The notes below the pieces were generated by a model. It did not search any database. It saw only the letters and a list, made by a program, of their open reading frames with translations, and was not told where the DNA came from. Positions 59,962 through 63,960 of a DNA stretch of 64,000 nt are shown piece after piece (position 1 is the first letter of the stretch; every line of letters begins with the position of its first letter). Position numbers and translations under genes: made by a program. This DNA is from Phapecoctavirus DIJ07P2, in the sequence record OZ035771.1; one strand, given 5' to 3'.

Positions 59962-60215
59962 TCTAGCCTCCTAAACGCGTCTCTGACGCACTTTTTATAT
60001 ATAAGATGATAAATCACCTTACCTAGTAAGTGAACTTGCTCTACGAGCCTCTTATGAAGCTTATGTTATAGGCTATACTATTGCTACCTATTTAAGCAAG
60101 GTTTTTTGCACAAAGAAAATAATTTTTAATAAAACTCTTGACTTTTGTGTTCGAAGTATGCTACCCTAGAAATCTATTAACGAGCGCAGCGAGTTAAGGT
60201 TTTAGGTTGTTGATG

Positions 60216-60250
60216 TAGTACTCTGTACTCAAGTACTGTACTCCGTACTA
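60216..60250. repeat. GTACT iteron array (5 copies in 35 bp)
   Basis: tAGTACTctGTACTcaAGTACTGTACTccGTACTag. Confidence 0.6.
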
Positions 60251-60297
60251 GATTAATAATTATTAAATATTAATAATAAATAATTATTAGATCTAAC
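60249..60297. repeat. AT-only near-palindrome (~48 bp)
   Basis: TAGATTAATAATTATTAAATATTAATAATAAATAATTATTAGATCTA. Confidence 0.55.
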
Positions 60298-60443
60298 AAA
60301 CAGGTACAGTGTATCAGAACTGGTACGTACAGATCAACTTCTATCAATTAAAAATAAAATAATAAATTATTATAAATAATACTTGATCTATAGATTAGTA
60401 TGAAGTACAGTACGGAACATCTTAACAAGAATGGAGGTGTGCA

Positions 60444-61183: not shown

Positions 61184-61220
61184 TTGACAAACGTATCCTT
61201 CATATGTTAGGATACGTTCA
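61184..61220 (+). promoter_or_regulatory. promoter overlapped by a 9-bp inverted-repeat operator
   Basis: TTGACA 61184 followed by ACGTATCCT-tcatatgtt-AGGATACGT. Confidence 0.45.
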
Positions 61221-61226
61221 TCAAGT

Positions 61227-61417
61227 GTGGTAACAGGGTCGTTGACTTTTGTTAAGAGGGGCTTGCACTGCGGATAGTGTTAGAGACTACTTCTTCAGAG
61301 GTTAGCTACCAAAGAGGAAAAGGAATAGTCTCGGCTCAAGAACTTTTACGCTGAAAGTTGGGCTTGGTCTTAGAGAATGTAGCGGTTCTCTACAATCGTC
61401 AGCGTCTCTGTTACCAC
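61227..61417 (+). ncRNA. candidate structured leader / ncRNA upstream of first tRNA
   Basis: perfect 10-bp terminal inverted repeat GTGGTAACAG (61227) / CTGTTACCAC (61408) enclosing ~170 nt with internal inverted repeats; no ORF. Confidence 0.3.
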
Positions 61418-61423
61418 ATTTAT

Positions 61424-61498
61424 GGCCCTGTAGCTCAATGGGAGAGCTGTCGGCTCATAACCGATAGGTAGCTGGATCGAAACCAGCCAGGGCCACCA
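61424..61498 (+). tRNA. tRNA-Met (CAT) or Ile2
   Basis: acceptor GGCCCTG/CAGGGCC, anticodon loop CTCATAA, T-arm GCTGG-ATCGAAA-CCAGC, A73, CCA encoded. Confidence 0.75.
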
Positions 61499-61500
61499 AC

Positions 61501-61575
61501 GTCTTTATGGTGTAATGGATAGCACAGGAGTCTTCTAAACTCTTAGTCAAGGTTCGATTCCTTGTAAAGACACCA
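61501..61575 (+). tRNA. tRNA-Arg (TCT)
   Basis: acceptor GTCTTTA/TAAAGAC, anticodon loop CTTCTAA, T-loop TTCGATT. Confidence 0.75.
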
Positions 61576-61771
61576 GAACATTTTAACATGAATTAGCTCA
61601 AGTGATTTGAACCCACTACTGATCATGGTGGCAGAGAATGAGGCAAGTATGTCAGACATTATAAACAAAGGCCACGGTTATATTAGAAGACATAAATGCT
61701 CGAAGAGCACTGTTCGTGGAGAACGGGGGTTGGTGGAGTCACCATTCATGGTAAAATGTTTTAAAAAACTA

Positions 61772-61800
61772 TTGACAACAAGCATTATTTTATGTTAGAT
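61772..61800 (+). promoter_or_regulatory. sigma70-like promoter for downstream tRNAs
   Basis: TTGACA 61772, 17-nt spacer, TTAGAT. Confidence 0.45.
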
Positions 61801-61809
61801 TATAAGTAT

Positions 61810-61900
61810 GGAAGGGCAAATCGACGTGGCGACGAAAACGGTCTTGAAAACCGCCGAGCTTGAAAGAGCCTTGGGAGTTCGACTCTCCCTCCTTCCGCCA
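61810..61900 (+). tRNA. tRNA-Ser (TGA)
   Basis: anticodon arm CGGTCTTGAAAACCG identical to enterobacterial tRNA-Ser(UGA); long variable arm; T-arm GGGAG-TTCGACT-CTCCC. Confidence 0.75.
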
Positions 61901-61905
61901 GATTA

Positions 61906-61991
61906 GGTAGATTGGTGAAATGGTAGCCACGACAGTTTGCTAAACTGTAGTCGGAAACGGCGTGTAGGTTCGAGTCCTACATCTACCGCCA
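61906..61991 (+). tRNA. tRNA-Ser (GCT)
   Basis: acceptor GGTAGAT/ATCTACC, anticodon loop TTGCTAA, long variable arm. Confidence 0.7.
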
Positions 61992-62121
61992 AGTTCTTTT
62001 TAATGTAGCTTACTTTAGCAGAGTAAATCTTCGGCAAGTGGCGGTAACCACTTTACCGATAACTCATAGTTAGTGGTGTGAACACTGGCTATTTTAAAAA
62101 GAATTTAAATATTAGTATTTA

Positions 62122-62209
62122 GGTGAGTTAATTCCGTAGGGGTAGCGGGGCAGACTGTAAATCTGTTATCATTGCGATTCGGGTGGTTCGACTCCATCAC
62201 TCACCACCA
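62122..62209 (+). tRNA. tRNA-Tyr (GTA)
   Basis: acceptor GGTGAGT/ACTCACC, anticodon arm GCAGA-CTGTAAA-TCTGT, long variable arm, A73. Confidence 0.7.
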
Positions 62210-62215
62210 AATTAA

Positions 62216-62301
62216 GATGAGTTGGCTGAATGGTTTAAGCGGCGGACTGTTAATCCGTGTTCGAAAGAACAATATAGGTTCGAATCCTATACTCATCGCC
62301 A
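62216..62301 (+). tRNA. type-II tRNA with Asn anticodon GTT
   Basis: acceptor GATGAGT/ACTCATC, anticodon arm GCGGA-CTGTTAA-TCCGT, 15-nt variable region, G73. Confidence 0.55.
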
Positions 62302-62308
62302 GAATTAT

Positions 62309-62385
62309 GGACTTGTAGAGTTAAGGTAAACCCCCAGTCGCCAATAGGCTTCTGGAATTGCAGGTATCGAATCCTGCCGAGTCCC
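62309..62385 (+). ncRNA. tRNA-like element without canonical anticodon arm
   Basis: acceptor-like GGACTTG/CGAGTCC and T-arm GCAGG-TATCGAAT-CCTGC, but no 5-7-5 anticodon stem-loop and no encoded CCA. Confidence 0.3.
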
Positions 62386-62391
62386 AGCATT

Positions 62392-62466
62392 GCTCCTATA
62401 GTATAATGGCTATTACAACGGTTTTGTAATCCGTGGATCTCTGTTCGATTCAGTGTGGGAGCACCA
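62392..62466 (+). tRNA. tRNA-Thr (TGT)
   Basis: acceptor GCTCCTA/TGGGAGC, anticodon loop TTTGTAA, T-loop TTCGATT, A73. Confidence 0.7.
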
Positions 62467-62741
62467 ACACAACATTAAGAGCACTGTGATTGATCGTCGT
62501 ATCCTGTGCACAAGGTCTGCTCGAAAGACAGTGTTCTTAGTATTGTGTTGATCACAAAAAGAGTCACCCGAAACTTGACCGGAGTAGGGTTGGATGGGGC
62601 AAAATGAGAAGCGGCTCTCCCATCGACAGCAACGAAGAATAATATTTGACTTTGGTTTTGTATTATTTTAAGTTAGCTTACCGAACGTAGGGCTAGTCAC
62701 CCAAAGGGATACTCGTCACTGTCCCACCTATTAAATAACTA

Positions 62742-62771
62742 TTGACATTCGATAGTAAAATGTAGTATAGT
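62742..62771 (+). promoter_or_regulatory. sigma70-like promoter for downstream tRNAs
   Basis: TTGACA 62742, 18-nt spacer, TATAGT. Confidence 0.45.
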
Positions 62772-62788
62772 AAATATATATATACAAA

Positions 62789-62865
62789 GCGTTATTAGTG
62801 TTAGCGGTTCAGCATCCCGTCCTTCCAAGTCGGTGGCATCGGTTCGAATCCGATATAACGCTCCA
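62789..62865 (+). tRNA. tRNA-Gly (TCC)
   Basis: acceptor GCGTTAT/ATAACGC, anticodon loop CTTCCAA, T-arm ATCGG-TTCGAAT-CCGAT, U73. Confidence 0.7.
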
Positions 62866-62963
62866 AATTATTTAATAAAGGGTTGCCAGAAAACTTTCTC
62901 TTTTACTAATGGTTTTCTCTTTCTCTCACACCTCTTCTGGTTGCCCTTCATTAAATGATTTAT

Positions 62964-63039
62964 TGGTTTGTAGTGTAGTCCGGTAGCACACGACACTTTG
63001 ACTGTCGTAGGTTTGGTTCAAATCCAGACAGACCAGCCA
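62964..63039 (+). tRNA. tRNA-Gln (TTG)
   Basis: anticodon arm CGACA-CTTTGAC-TGTCG, T-loop TTCAAAT, G73. Confidence 0.7.
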
Positions 63040-63083
63040 TATAACAAAGGTGAGTCACTACCTTAAGTGCGAAGTTAAAATAT

Positions 63084-63160
63084 ACAGCCTTTAGCTCAAC
63101 CTGGTAGAGTGCATCGTTTGGGGCGATGAAGTTAAAAGTTCGAATCTTTTAAGGCTGACC
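63084..63160 (+). tRNA. tRNA-Pro (TGG)
   Basis: C1:G72 acceptor CAGCCTT/AAGGCTG, anticodon arm CATCG-TTTGGGG-CGATG, T-loop TTCGAAT, A73. Confidence 0.75.
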
Positions 63161-63235
63161 AAATTACAATTCCATGCGTCTGACAAAAGGTTAGTCGGTA
63201 TAAGACGTGGGATTTAATACTTATAAGGAGGACTT

Positions 63236-63577
63236 ATGTATAAATGTAGCCATTGTGGTGAAGAAGATCCGCAAAAGTTCTACGGTCATAAGAAATCTAT
63301 TTGTGGTTATTGTCATAATAAGTATACAATAGACTTAGGACAACAGAAAAAGAAGTATGCTCGTGATAAGTTAGGTGGTAAGTGTGTTTCCTGCGGTTAC
63401 GATAAATATCAGGAAGCTTTAGATATACACCATCTTGATCCGACAATAAAAGACCGGAGTTTCGCATCCATGCGTGGGTGGTCGCTTAAGAGGATTGATA
63501 AAGAGATAGAGAACTGCATCTTACTATGTAAGAACTGTCATTCAGCTTTCCATTCTGGTCATGATATTACTTGGTAG
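63236..63577 (+). CDS. HNH endonuclease within tRNA cluster
   Basis: CSHCG...CGYCH...DIHHLDP...CKNCH; AAGGAGG RBS. Confidence 0.75.
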   Translation: MYKCSHCGEEDPQKFYGHKKSICGYCHNKYTIDLGQQKKKYARDKLGGKCVSCGYDKYQEALDIHHLDPTIKDRSFASMRGWSLKRIDKEIENCILLCKNCHSAFHSGHDITW

Positions 63578-63591
63578 TAATACTAATTAAA

Positions 63592-63665
63592 TGTTTCGTA
63601 GTTCAATGGTAGAACCCACGACTGATAATCGTGAGACACAAGTTCGATTCTTGTCGAAACAACCA
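63592..63665 (+). tRNA. tRNA-Ile (GAT)
   Basis: acceptor TGTTTCG/CGAAACA, anticodon arm CACGA-CTGATAA-TCGTG, T-loop TTCGATT, A73. Confidence 0.7.
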
Positions 63666-63667
63666 GT

Positions 63668-63737
63668 TTCCCGTTAGACTTACAGGATAAGAGATCCACA
63701 ATTTATTGTGACGCTGGTTCGAATCCAGCACGGGATA
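63668..63737 (+). ncRNA. tRNA-like element with degenerate anticodon arm
   Basis: T-arm GCTGG-TTCGAAT-CCAGC and acceptor-like TTCCCGT/ACGGGAT (1-72 mismatch), middle forms CACAA-ttta-TTGTG instead of an anticodon arm. Confidence 0.3.
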
Positions 63738-63742
63738 CATAA

Positions 63743-63821
63743 TAGCGGGATAGAGGAGTCTGGTCGTCCTCGCCAGTTTCATATGCTGGAGATCATTGGT
63801 TCAAATCCAATTCCCGCCTCC
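63743..63821 (+). tRNA. tRNA with CAT anticodon (second Met/Ile2-type)
   Basis: anticodon arm CCAGT-TTCATAT-GCTGG, T-arm ATTGG-TTCAAAT-CCAAT, A1-C72 mismatch, U73. Confidence 0.6.
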
Positions 63822-63936
63822 AAATATCGCTTGCCAGCGGTATCTTTGAAGACCTTGCCTGGTTCCTTCTAAGATGGAGGGGTGCGACTCCTTAACGCAC
63901 AATCATAATAAAACATTTCAAATTAACAGTATTTAT

Positions 63937-63960
63937 TGGCCTCCTTATTGGAGGCTTTTT
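63937..63960 (+). terminator. rho-independent terminator
   Basis: GGCCTCC-ttatt-GGAGGC followed by TTTTT. Confidence 0.7.

What the first reader, a model, noticed from the sequence alone, without database searches (positions are those of the whole stretch)
61576..62640. ORF-free structured spacers inside the tRNA cluster (ncRNA candidates)
Three spacers of 100-190 nt (61576-61770, 61992-62120, 62467-62640) lack credible ORFs (the track ORF 61607-61798 begins with TTG and has no RBS) yet contain long imperfect stems, for example ACACAACATTAAGAGCACTGTG pairing with ACAGTGTTCTTAGTATTGTGTT around 62468-62545, and GTGGCGGTAACCAC. Phage tRNA regions are known to co-encode small stable RNAs of unknown function.
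Basis: partly seen in the sequence, partly recalled or inferred. Interest (0 to 1): 0.4.

Follow-up and report, generated by a model that had tools for sequence, protein, structure and literature searches.

The report
Conserved structured RNAs between phage tRNAs
The gaps between tRNA genes in this E. coli phage are not filler: they hold small folded RNAs without protein-coding potential that are conserved across several phage families and resemble the unexplained "stable RNAs" known from phages T4 and T5.

Summary
The window is a phAPEC8-like E. coli myophage (Phapecoctavirus).

**Observation.** All three spacers are real, free of tRNAs and free of conserved ORFs. Both quoted stems exist.

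**Evidence for each spacer**
- **S1 (61576-61766):** a ~190-nt RNA shared with Seunavirus phages. It has 60 consensus pairs, 19 of them with compensatory changes. Its core resembles a tRNA, with a ~105-nt insertion at the D-loop position, a shrunken T arm and an extended acceptor helix.
- **S2 (61992-62108):** a four-way junction conserved in Phapecoctavirus, Justusliebigvirus, Certrevirus and some T5-like phages. In those sampled it is followed by tRNA-Tyr, tRNA-Lys or an HNH gene.
- **Spacer 3:** this really runs to 62788. It starts with an 83-nt hairpin, S3a, whose ~40-nt apical domain is invariant while its stem covaries. The same module occurs in lambdoid-type prophages and siphoviruses.

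None of them matches any Rfam family.

**Architecture.** A long helix joins the 5' and 3' ends, and the elements lie directly next to tRNA ends or a promoter. T5/BF23 RNAs annotated "stable RNA with unknown functions" share this layout, but I found no sequence homology to them.

**Most likely explanation.** These are small RNAs co-transcribed with the tRNAs and cut out by tRNA processing. Neither expression nor function is shown.

**Verdict.** New members of a known but unexplained kind; moderate interest.

The parts
61184..61213 (+). Promoter-like site P-A (TTGACA, 18 nt, TAGGAT, with TG). It would drive S0, tRNA-Met, tRNA-Arg and S1.
   Evidence: Consensus scan. The context AACTATTGACA recurs at 61772 and 62742. 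A consensus match only.
61223..61421 (+). S0: a ~200-nt structured leader RNA. A 16+6-bp closing helix joins the first transcribed bases to the bases just before tRNA-Met. It lies outside the finding's coordinates but is the same kind of element.
   Evidence: z = -5.65. 66 consensus pairs; 8 changed on both sides and none broken against phiWec179 at 81% identity. Found only in Phapecoctavirus and phiWec-type phages.
61576..61766 (+). S1: a ~190-nt structured RNA. It has an extended closing helix of 17 pairs and a tRNA-like core carrying a ~105-nt two-hairpin insertion at the D-loop position.
   Evidence: Alignment A4, 8 sequences including Seunavirus. 60 pairs, 96.4% of cells paired, 19 pairs with double changes against 4-5 in slid controls, 0 of 500 shuffles reach the score. 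CM hit at 61573-61771, 192 bits, + strand only. Local similarity to tRNAs z = 4.0, 0 of 200 shuffles. No conserved ORF.
61772..61801 (+). Promoter-like site P-B, immediately after S1.
61992..62108 (+). S2: a ~117-nt four-way-junction RNA. P1 is an 11-bp closing helix, P2 an invariant hairpin, P3 contains GTGGCGGTAACCAC, and P4 is the fourth arm.
   Evidence: Alignment A3, 12 sequences from four phage genera. 37 pairs, 99.5% paired, 5 pairs with double changes against 0-1 in slid controls. CM scores 127.8 bits on + and 35 on -. It starts directly after the CCA of tRNA-Ser(GCT).
62122..62209 (+). tRNA-Tyr(GTA), missed by default ARAGORN. It is the usual downstream partner of S2.
   Evidence: Rfam tRNA 39 bits. 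ARAGORN at -ps85. S2 directly precedes tRNA-Tyr in the window, phiWec179, PBES02 and HildyBeyeler.
62467..62549 (+). S3a: an 83-nt hairpin. The lower stem of ~21 bp is variable but compensated, and the ~40-nt apical domain GATTGATCGTCGT...GTCTGCTCGAA is invariant.
   Evidence: z = -4.1. 29 pairs, 7 with double changes. The same module occurs in 17 IMG/VR stretches, one of them the phiWec-like myophage contig; those inspected are prophage-type (L035 lambdoid). It is also in Klebsiella phage SCNJ1-C, Nonanavirus PJ16 and 40 of 5426 E. coli genomes, unannotated at the places listed.
62550..62640 (+). S3b: a conserved stretch with one moderately supported hairpin (GATGGGG...CTCCCATC).
   Evidence: Conserved in phiWec179 and Citrobacter phage Tr1. 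18 predicted pairs, 3 with double changes and several broken; z about 0 alone. Weak.
62672..62735 (+). S3c: a ~50-nt conserved sequence block (CCGAACGTAGG..GTCA.CCAA.GGGATAC.CGTCACTGTCCCAC). Its structure is unproven.
   Evidence: About 90% identical in Tr1, where it precedes a ribosome-binding site and a CDS instead of a tRNA. No covariation.
62742..62771 (+). Promoter-like site P-C (TTGACA, 18 nt, TATAGT), upstream of tRNA-Gly.
62866..62963 (+). S4: a ~25-bp closing stem around a ~45-nt CU-rich loop, between tRNA-Gly and tRNA-Gln. It lies outside the finding's coordinates.
   Evidence: z = -5.3. Nearly identical in phiWec179.
63938..63956 (+). Intrinsic-terminator-like hairpin closing the tRNA/ncRNA cluster.

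Best explanation
**What they are.** The spacers are genes for small structured non-coding RNAs embedded in the phage's tRNA operons.

**How they would be made (inferred).**
- They are transcribed on the + strand from sigma-70-type promoter-like sites at 61184, 61772 and 62742, as part of polycistronic tRNA precursors.
- Each element begins within 0-3 nt of the CCA end of the preceding tRNA, or close to the predicted start of the transcript.
- In most relatives each ends a few nt before the next tRNA.
- The host tRNA-maturation machinery would therefore cut them out as discrete molecules. RNase P cuts at the 5' end of the downstream tRNA, and endonuclease plus exonuclease trimming acts at the 3' end of the upstream tRNA.
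- A long terminal helix pairs the two ends and should protect them from end-dependent decay.

**What they would do (inferred).**
- Because their unpaired nucleotides are as strongly conserved as their helices, they probably act as folded RNAs that are recognised by a protein or another RNA. They look like more than passive spacers.
- S1 is a tRNA-derived mimic that cannot be a decoder. It has no encoded CCA end, G in place of the usual U before the anticodon-like triplet (the position of tRNA U33), a 4-bp/4-nt T arm and a 105-nt insertion.
- S2 and S3a are independent modules that move between unrelated phages.
- My best guess at their role is accessory host-takeover or counter-defence RNAs. 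For S1 that would mean a decoy for a tRNA-recognising host factor.

**Shown versus inferred.**
- Shown: conservation, structure, strand, non-coding nature, position and modular distribution.
- Inferred: transcription, processing, stability and any function.
For: **Structure with covariation**
- S1: 19 of 60 pairs doubly changed, 0 of 500 shuffles reach the observed score.
- S2: 5 of 37 pairs doubly changed, against 0-1 in slid controls.
- S3a: 7 of 29 pairs.
- S0: 8 of 66 pairs, none broken.

**Strand.** Covariance-model scores are 128 bits on + against 35 on - for S2, and + only for S1. Many conserved G-U pairs appear in the pair tables.

**Not coding.**

**Breadth**
- S1 occurs in Stephanstirmvirinae and in Vequintavirinae/Seunavirus at about 70% identity, always inside a tRNA cluster.
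- S2 occurs in Phapecoctavirus, Justusliebigvirus, Certrevirus and T5-like HildyBeyeler.
- S3a occurs in lytic myophages, siphoviruses and lambdoid-type prophages.

**Direct abutment to tRNA ends or promoters.**

**Invariant unpaired blocks.** In S1 these are AUUAGCUCA, ACUGAUCAU, GAGAAUGAG and GGUGGAGUCACCAU. The whole apical domain of S3a is invariant.

**Precedent.** T5 and BF23 records annotate RNAI, RNAIII, RNAIV, RNA2H, RNAX and the tRNA-like RNA1-3 as stable RNAs in their tRNA regions. RNAI, RNAIII and RNA2H show the same closing-helix architecture in their minimum-free-energy folds.

**Cassette behaviour.** The slot between promoter P14a and tRNA-Tyr holds S2 in HildyBeyeler but a different closing-stem RNA in BF23.

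**tRNA ancestry of S1.**
Against: - There are no expression data. No RNA-seq or northern evidence for these phages turned up in the literature searches.
- Promoters and the terminator are consensus matches only. The promoter count in the region is not above chance (8 found against 10 expected).
- Alignments are small (8-12 sequences, effective number about 1), and several rows are close relatives.
- The tRNA-likeness of S1 fails both standard tRNA models. The permissive ARAGORN mitochondrial mode is uninformative, because 94% of shuffles also pass.
- S3b and S3c lack structural support.
- Nothing links any of these RNAs to a target, so the decoy or counter-defence role is speculation.
Confidence: 0.62

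Rival explanations
1. The elements act only in cis as processing, insulation or stability modules of the tRNA precursor. Long helices would serve as RNase III or RNase E entry sites, or as folding insulators that keep neighbouring tRNAs from misfolding, and the excised pieces would be by-products.
For: - Every element abuts a tRNA or the predicted start of the transcript.
- S3a has a ~21-bp near-perfect lower stem starting 1 nt after the CCA of tRNA-Thr. That is the size of a classical RNase III substrate (my own knowledge).
- From my own recollection, T4 species 1 RNA is cleaved by RNase III in vitro.
Against: - An insulator or cleavage site needs helices, not invariant loops and junctions across 30% sequence divergence.
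- The S3a module also occurs where no tRNA is present in the fetched locus, as in PJ16, and about 190 nt from the nearest tRNA in a lambdoid-type prophage.
- Different phages manage with 2-8-nt tRNA spacers in the same clusters.
Confidence: 0.2
2. They are decaying relics without function: tRNA pseudogenes and scars left by homing-endonuclease traffic.
For: - S1 has tRNA-like sequence.
- The cluster holds degenerate tRNA-like pieces at 62309-62385 and 63668-63737.
- HNH genes sit in or beside these clusters.
Against: - Compensatory substitutions and invariant blocks are maintained between subfamilies.
- The modules have been acquired independently by unrelated phages.
- Relics would not keep 96-99% of cells paired.
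Confidence: 0.05
3. They work at the DNA level, for example as cruciforms, replication or packaging signals, or terminal inverted repeats of a miniature mobile element.
For: - The long closing helices are inverted repeats in the DNA.
- The modules are mobile between phages.
Against: - Conserved G-U pairs and the strong strand asymmetry of the covariance-model scores fit RNA rather than DNA.
- Internal helices covary as well.
- The covariance models for S1 and S2 find one copy each in the window, and S3a is single-copy per E. coli genome.
Confidence: 0.05
4. They encode small proteins.
For: A 63-codon TTG ORF spans S1 in this window. Some GenBank records annotate hypothetical proteins there.
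Against: The frame is broken by indels and stop codons in relatives. Single-base indels occur between close lineages. The substitution pattern follows the helices rather than codon positions.
Confidence: 0.03

Closest known systems
Bacteriophage T5/BF23 stable RNAs of the tRNA gene region (RNAI, RNAIII, RNAIV, RNA2H, RNAX; tRNA-like RNA1, RNA2, RNA3)
   Same: - They sit between tRNA genes or between an early promoter and the first tRNA.
- They are annotated as stable RNAs with unknown functions.
- In minimum-free-energy folds a terminal helix joins the two ends in RNAI, RNAIII and RNA2H.
- A subset is described as tRNA-like, as S1 is.
- They are absent from Rfam.
- S2 occupies a T5-type slot (P14a to tRNA-Tyr) in the T5-like phage HildyBeyeler.
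   Different: - No sequence or covariance-model homology between S1 or S2 and anything in the T5 or BF23 tRNA regions.
- No T5-like hits for S0, S1 or S3 by blastn.
- The T5 RNAs are annotated as detected stable RNAs in the records, whereas these elements are not annotated at all.
Bacteriophage T4 species 1 and species 2 RNAs (rnaC, rnaD) in the T4 tRNA cluster
   Same: They are small stable RNAs of still-unknown function, co-transcribed with phage tRNAs and released by tRNA processing. This is from my own knowledge and was not tested here.
   Different: No T4-like phage appears among the blastn hits for the spacers themselves. Homology was not otherwise tested.
Bacterial Y RNAs (YrlA type): a tRNA-like module plus a long helix formed by the 5' and 3' ends
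   Same: S1 also combines a tRNA-derived module with a long terminal helix.
   Different: - No Rfam Y-RNA family matches at E <= 10.
- In S1 the terminal helix continues the acceptor stem rather than replacing the anticodon stem, and the T loop is lost. The description of YrlA architecture is from memory.
- I did not check for a Ro/Rsr gene.
tRNA-punctuated release of non-coding RNAs (the mascRNA/MALAT1 and mitochondrial punctuation principle)
   Same: The ends of the element are defined by cleavages of the neighbouring tRNAs.
   Different: That precedent is a eukaryotic or organellar system. The resemblance concerns mechanism only, and processing is not shown here.
Large ornate phage-associated RNAs found near tRNA genes (GOLLD, ROOL)
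   Same: They are structured RNAs of unknown function that often lie next to tRNAs in phages. This is from my own knowledge.
   Different: Those RNAs are 500-800 nt. Neither they nor any other non-tRNA family reaches its gathering score in the window or in the related loci searched.

Membership tests
tRNA (Rfam RF00005 / ARAGORN) | Cloverleaf scoring at or above the family threshold (29 bits), or an ARAGORN call | tested here: not met
   No tRNA hit in S0, S1, S2 or S3, even at E <= 10 on S1 alone. ARAGORN at -ps70 gives no + strand call in the spacers. S1 with its insertion removed is still rejected by the bacterial model at -ps60.
tRNA-derived / tRNA-like RNA (S1 only) | Sequence similarity to tRNAs above chance, and cloverleaf-compatible order of arms | tested here: inconclusive
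   - Local alignment of S1 to the window's tRNAs gives z = 4.0, 0 of 200 shuffles.
- With the insertion removed, z = 3.2-4.7, and the score exceeds all 500 random window 66-mers.
- The D-stem halves GCUC and GAGC are invariant, so they carry no covariation evidence.
- The ARAGORN mitochondrial-mode call is meaningless because 94% of shuffles also pass.
- S0, S2 and S3a show no such similarity.
T5/BF23 stable RNAs of the tRNA region | Located inside a phage tRNA gene cluster, co-oriented with the tRNAs | tested here: met
T5/BF23 stable RNAs of the tRNA region | Sequence or structure homology to RNAI, III, IV, 2H, X or RNA1-3 | tested here: not met
   The covariance models of S1 and S2 find nothing in the T5 (L012) or BF23 (L002) tRNA regions. 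blastn gives no T5-like hit for S0, S1 or S3.
T5/BF23 stable RNAs of the tRNA region | Accumulates as a discrete stable RNA during infection | not testable with these tools
   This needs a northern blot or small-RNA sequencing.
Y RNA / YrlA | Match to the Rfam covariance models; a Ro (Rsr) partner gene | tested here: not met
   No match at E <= 10. I did not look for an Rsr gene.
Any other curated RNA family (Rfam 15: riboswitches, ribozymes, sRNAs, GOLLD, ROOL, 6S, tmRNA) | Score at or above the gathering threshold | tested here: not met
   Only tRNAs reach the threshold in the window and in 15 related loci. Sub-threshold hits are scattered chance-level matches.
RNase III processing hairpin (S3a) | About two turns of near-perfect double helix, cleaved by RNase III | not testable with these tools
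   The helix length fits: a lower stem of ~21 bp. Cleavage was not tested.

The most novel reading that the evidence does not exclude
The tRNA clusters of large virulent enterobacterial phages double as islands of exchangeable RNA-based accessory genes. On this reading:
- S1 is a tRNA mimic that titrates a tRNA-recognising host factor, such as an anticodon nuclease or another tRNA-targeting immune effector.
- S2 travels with tRNA-Tyr as a two-part module.
- The S3a apical domain is a portable protein-binding RNA shared by lytic and temperate phages.

If so, these would be RNA counter-defence or host-takeover factors, and they would give a first function to the class of phage "stable RNAs" that has gone unexplained since the 1970s.
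Probability: 0.15. Interest if true: 0.8.

Novelty: new member of a known kind. Interest (0 to 1): 0.45.

Why it matters
- **An old open question.** Stable RNAs of unknown function in phage tRNA clusters have been known for about 50 years in T4 and T5, and none has a function.
- **A broader phenomenon.** This locus shows the phenomenon is not confined to those two phages. At least three distinct RNA families have covariation-supported structures, are missing from Rfam, and carry at most the occasional "hypothetical protein" call in the GenBank records sampled. They are shared across phage subfamilies, and S3a is shared between lytic and temperate phages.
- **Signs of selection.** Modular exchange, invariant unpaired nucleotides and a variable cassette slot in T5-like phages are what one expects of selected accessory genes.
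- **Testable material.** The coordinates, structures and natural presence/absence variants make knock-outs and pull-downs straightforward.
- **Annotation.** Some pipelines place spurious hypothetical proteins on these regions.

Tried and rejected
- **Rfam.** I scanned at gathering and at E <= 10 on the window, on S1 alone and on related loci. Only tRNAs and chance-level hits appeared.
- **Homology to T5/BF23 stable RNAs.** A pattern search and two covariance models found none.
- **ARAGORN on S1 with the insertion deleted.** The bacterial mode is negative. The mitochondrial mode is positive in all 8 sequences, but also in 94% of shuffles and of random window pieces, so I discarded it as evidence.
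- **tRNA similarity of S0, S2, S3a, S3c and S4.** Not above chance; S3b is marginal at z = 2.1, 6 of 200 shuffles.
- **Protein-coding reading.** Rejected.
- **Public-collection scans.**
  - The S1 3' motif and the S3a apical motif were each scanned against one genome per bacterial species, with zero hits.
  - The S1 5' motif in metagenomes gave four contigs; the two long ones are ~150-kb phage-sized contigs.
  - IMG/VR added few new S1 or S2 sequences, and one S2 motif hit (L007) was a chance match.
- **Literature searches.** Searches for T5 stable RNAs, phage tRNA-cluster ncRNAs and tRNA-like decoys found nothing specific. A 2023 survey of candidate structured RNAs in viruses mentions tRNA-like candidates only in general terms (PMC10690425).
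- **S3b and S3c.** Consensus folding gives weak or no covariation.
Full report
**Source and layout**

The window is 98-99% identical to Phapecoctavirus phages (phAPEC8 group, Stephanstirmvirinae) such as Escherichia phage nepoznato and ESCO13.

The region 61184-63956 is a + strand tRNA cluster. ARAGORN finds 10 tRNAs. Rfam and relaxed ARAGORN add three more:
- tRNA-Tyr at about 62122-62209
- tRNA-Ser(TGA) at 61811-61900
- a doubtful tRNA-like element at 62309-62385

Three promoter-like sites share the context AACTATTGACA, at 61184, 61772 and 62742. One terminator-like hairpin lies at 63938. These are consensus matches only, and the promoter count is not above chance.

**Checking the observation**

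- No + strand tRNA is called in them at any ARAGORN threshold tried.
- Both quoted stems are present in the minimum-free-energy folds.
- The folds are more stable than dinucleotide shuffles. S1 gives z = -3.2, S2 z = -3.8, spacer 3 to 62740 z = -2.7, and its first hairpin alone z = -4.1.
- The TTG ORF across S1 is not conserved. It is frameshifted in phiWec179 and carries stops in four relatives.

**S1 (61576-61766)**

blastn finds S1 in 97 phage records. These are Phapecoctavirus at 95-99%, phiWec-type phages at 82%, and Seunavirus (Vequintavirinae: GAP31, PVP-SE1, SSE121, 4MG) at about 70%. Wherever tRNAs were checked, it lies inside a tRNA cluster, and in Seunavirus it sits directly before tRNA-Leu.

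An 8-sequence alignment gives a consensus structure of 60 pairs in 8 helices.
- 96.4% of cells are paired.
- 19 pairs are changed on both sides, against 4-5 when the 3' partners are slid by 1-3 columns.
- None of 500 shuffles reaches the observed values.

A covariance model finds one copy per genome, on the + strand only.

Between the helices lie blocks that never vary: AUUAGCUCA, ACUGAUCAU, GAGAAUGAG and GGUGGAGUCACCAU.

Read 5' to 3', the element has these parts:
- a 17-pair terminal helix;
- UA-GCUC, as at the start of a tRNA D arm;
- about 105 nt forming two covarying hairpin domains;
- AGAGC;
- a 5-6-bp arm with a 7-nt loop carrying YGG;
- a GAGGUC-type variable loop;
- a 4-bp/4-nt stub where the T arm would be.

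The evidence for tRNA ancestry is mixed.
- Alignment to real tRNAs is above chance. Local alignment gives z = 4.0 with 0 of 200 shuffles. With the insertion removed, z = 3.2-4.7, higher than all 500 random window pieces.
- Both standard tRNA models reject it.
- The permissive ARAGORN mode that accepts it also accepts 94% of shuffles.

I therefore call S1 tRNA-derived with moderate confidence, and not a tRNA.

**S2 (61992-62108)**

S2 occurs in 177 phage records: Phapecoctavirus, Justusliebigvirus, Vequintavirinae (Certrevirus PBES02) and a subset of T5-like Tequintavirus at about 82%.

It follows tRNA-Ser(GCT) or, in the T5-like phage HildyBeyeler, the promoter that BF23 annotates as P14a. It precedes tRNA-Tyr, tRNA-Lys or a homing-endonuclease gene.

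Twelve sequences give a four-way junction of 37 pairs.
- 99.5% of cells are paired.
- 5 pairs show double changes, against 0-1 in slid controls.
- Helix P2 and several junction bases are invariant.
- The model scores 128 bits on the + strand and 35 on the - strand.

BF23 has the same promoter and the same tRNA-Tyr but an unrelated RNA in between. That RNA also has a long closing helix (z = -4.7). The slot therefore behaves like a cassette site.

**Spacer 3**

Its first 83 nt form the S3a hairpin. The same module appears in these places:
- Klebsiella siphovirus SCNJ1-C, upstream of tRNA-Arg and tRNA-Met.
- Nonanavirus PJ16, which has two such hairpins in a ~700-nt stretch I read as non-coding, although one minus-strand hypothetical CDS is annotated there. 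One hairpin shares the apical domain with a completely different but still paired stem. The other shares the stem with a different apex.
- 17 IMG/VR stretches, one of which is the phiWec-like myophage contig; those inspected are prophage-type. In L035 the gene order is NinG-like and Q-like ORFs (read by eye from the translations), tRNA-Met, tRNA-Arg, the hairpin, then a putative lysis cassette.
- 40 of 5426 complete E. coli genomes, single copy. There is no annotation at the places listed apart from an adjacent pseudo-tRNA-Gly.

Seven of 29 pairs show double changes, while the ~40-nt apical domain is invariant.

The rest of spacer 3 is less secure. S3b and S3c are conserved in phiWec179 and Citrobacter phage Tr1, but their structure is weakly supported or unsupported.

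- **S0 (61223-61421)** is the whole leader between promoter P-A and tRNA-Met. It gives z = -5.65, with 66 pairs, 8 double changes against phiWec179 and none broken.
- **S4 (62866-62963)** is a ~25-bp stem around a CU-rich loop, z = -5.3.
- **PVP-SE1** carries yet another closing-stem RNA (z = -5.5) and a conserved tRNA-like RNA with a CCA end next to its S1.

**How it most likely works**

Shown:
- conserved, covarying, strand-specific, non-coding structures;
- ends that coincide with tRNA ends or with a promoter-like site;
- independent spread among unrelated phages.

Inferred:
- The elements are transcribed with the tRNAs.
- They are freed by RNase P and tRNA 3'-end processing.
- The terminal helix protects them.
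- They act as folded RNAs recognised by a partner.

The invariant unpaired nucleotides and the modular exchange argue for a trans-acting accessory function rather than a passive spacer. HNH homing endonucleases in and beside these clusters offer a plausible vehicle for the exchange. A decoy role for the tRNA mimic S1 is attractive because phage tRNA clusters are thought to counter tRNA-targeting defences (PMC10264068, seen). Nothing here tests that idea.

**Comparison with what is known**

The closest relatives in kind are the T5/BF23 "stable RNAs with unknown functions" and "tRNA-like RNAs", annotated in GenBank records AY543070 and AJ604530. From my own knowledge, the T4 species 1 and 2 RNAs belong to the same kind.

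Location and architecture match, but sequence homology was tested and not found. None of these RNAs, the T5 ones included, is in Rfam 15.

**Verdict**

The elements are new, undescribed members of an old and unexplained class. I score interest as moderate, because no function can be assigned from sequence alone.

Noticed in passing
window 61223-61421: The whole leader between the first promoter-like site and tRNA-Met is a ~200-nt RNA. It has the most significant fold in the cluster (z = -5.65) and 8 compensatory changes against phiWec179.
   Followed up: yes
window 62866-62963: A ~25-bp closing stem encloses a ~45-nt CU-rich loop containing CACACCUCUUC, which resembles the 16S anti-Shine-Dalgarno end. 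z = -5.3, and it is nearly identical in phiWec179.
   Followed up: partly
window 62309-62385, 63668-63737 and 63823-63935: These are degenerate tRNA-like elements and a structured tail.
- 62309-62385 has a good acceptor stem and T arm but an odd anticodon arm, and ARAGORN calls it only at -ps85.
- 63668-63737 scores 24 bits on the tRNA model.
- 63823-63935 lies just before the terminator.
   Followed up: partly
window 63236-63577: An HNH endonuclease ORF (Pfam HNH, E = 1.5e-6) sits between tRNA-Pro and tRNA-Ile. In phage TSP7_1 these two tRNAs are 6 nt apart, so this is a presence/absence (homing) polymorphism.
   Followed up: partly
L003 2460-2620 versus L002 8214-8320: In T5-like phages the slot between promoter P14a and tRNA-Tyr holds S2 in HildyBeyeler. 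In BF23 it holds an unrelated closing-stem RNA (z = -4.7) that is not annotated in the BF23 record.
   Followed up: partly
L010 2198-2494 and L009 2384-2493: Seunavirus phages carry a conserved ~108-nt tRNA-like RNA with an encoded CCA end (tRNA-Sec model 23.5 bits, below threshold). PVP-SE1 also carries a further 177-nt RNA with a 17-bp perfect closing stem. Both are unannotated.
   Followed up: partly
L010 2687-3257 and L024 480-1058: An HNH gene is inserted into tRNA-Leu directly after S1 in PVP-SE1 and SSE121. It leaves a 5' tRNA-Leu fragment followed by a complete copy.
   Followed up: no
L045 2500-2694: In an E. coli prophage, the 3' strand of the S3a-type hairpin (GTTGTGGT) is also the 5' acceptor strand of a 115-nt "pseudogenic tRNA-Gly". 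The two structures are therefore mutually exclusive.
   Followed up: no
L027 600-1340: Nonanavirus PJ16 has a ~700-nt stretch that I read as non-coding, although a minus-strand hypothetical CDS is annotated over part of it. It runs from a promoter-like site to a terminator-like hairpin, holds two S3a-type hairpins and shares sequence with SCNJ1-C. It may be a long ncRNA.
   Followed up: no
window 60200-60420: An AT-rich block with many short GTAC-containing repeats flanks palindromic AT runs, upstream of the small ORFs that precede the tRNA cluster.
   Followed up: no
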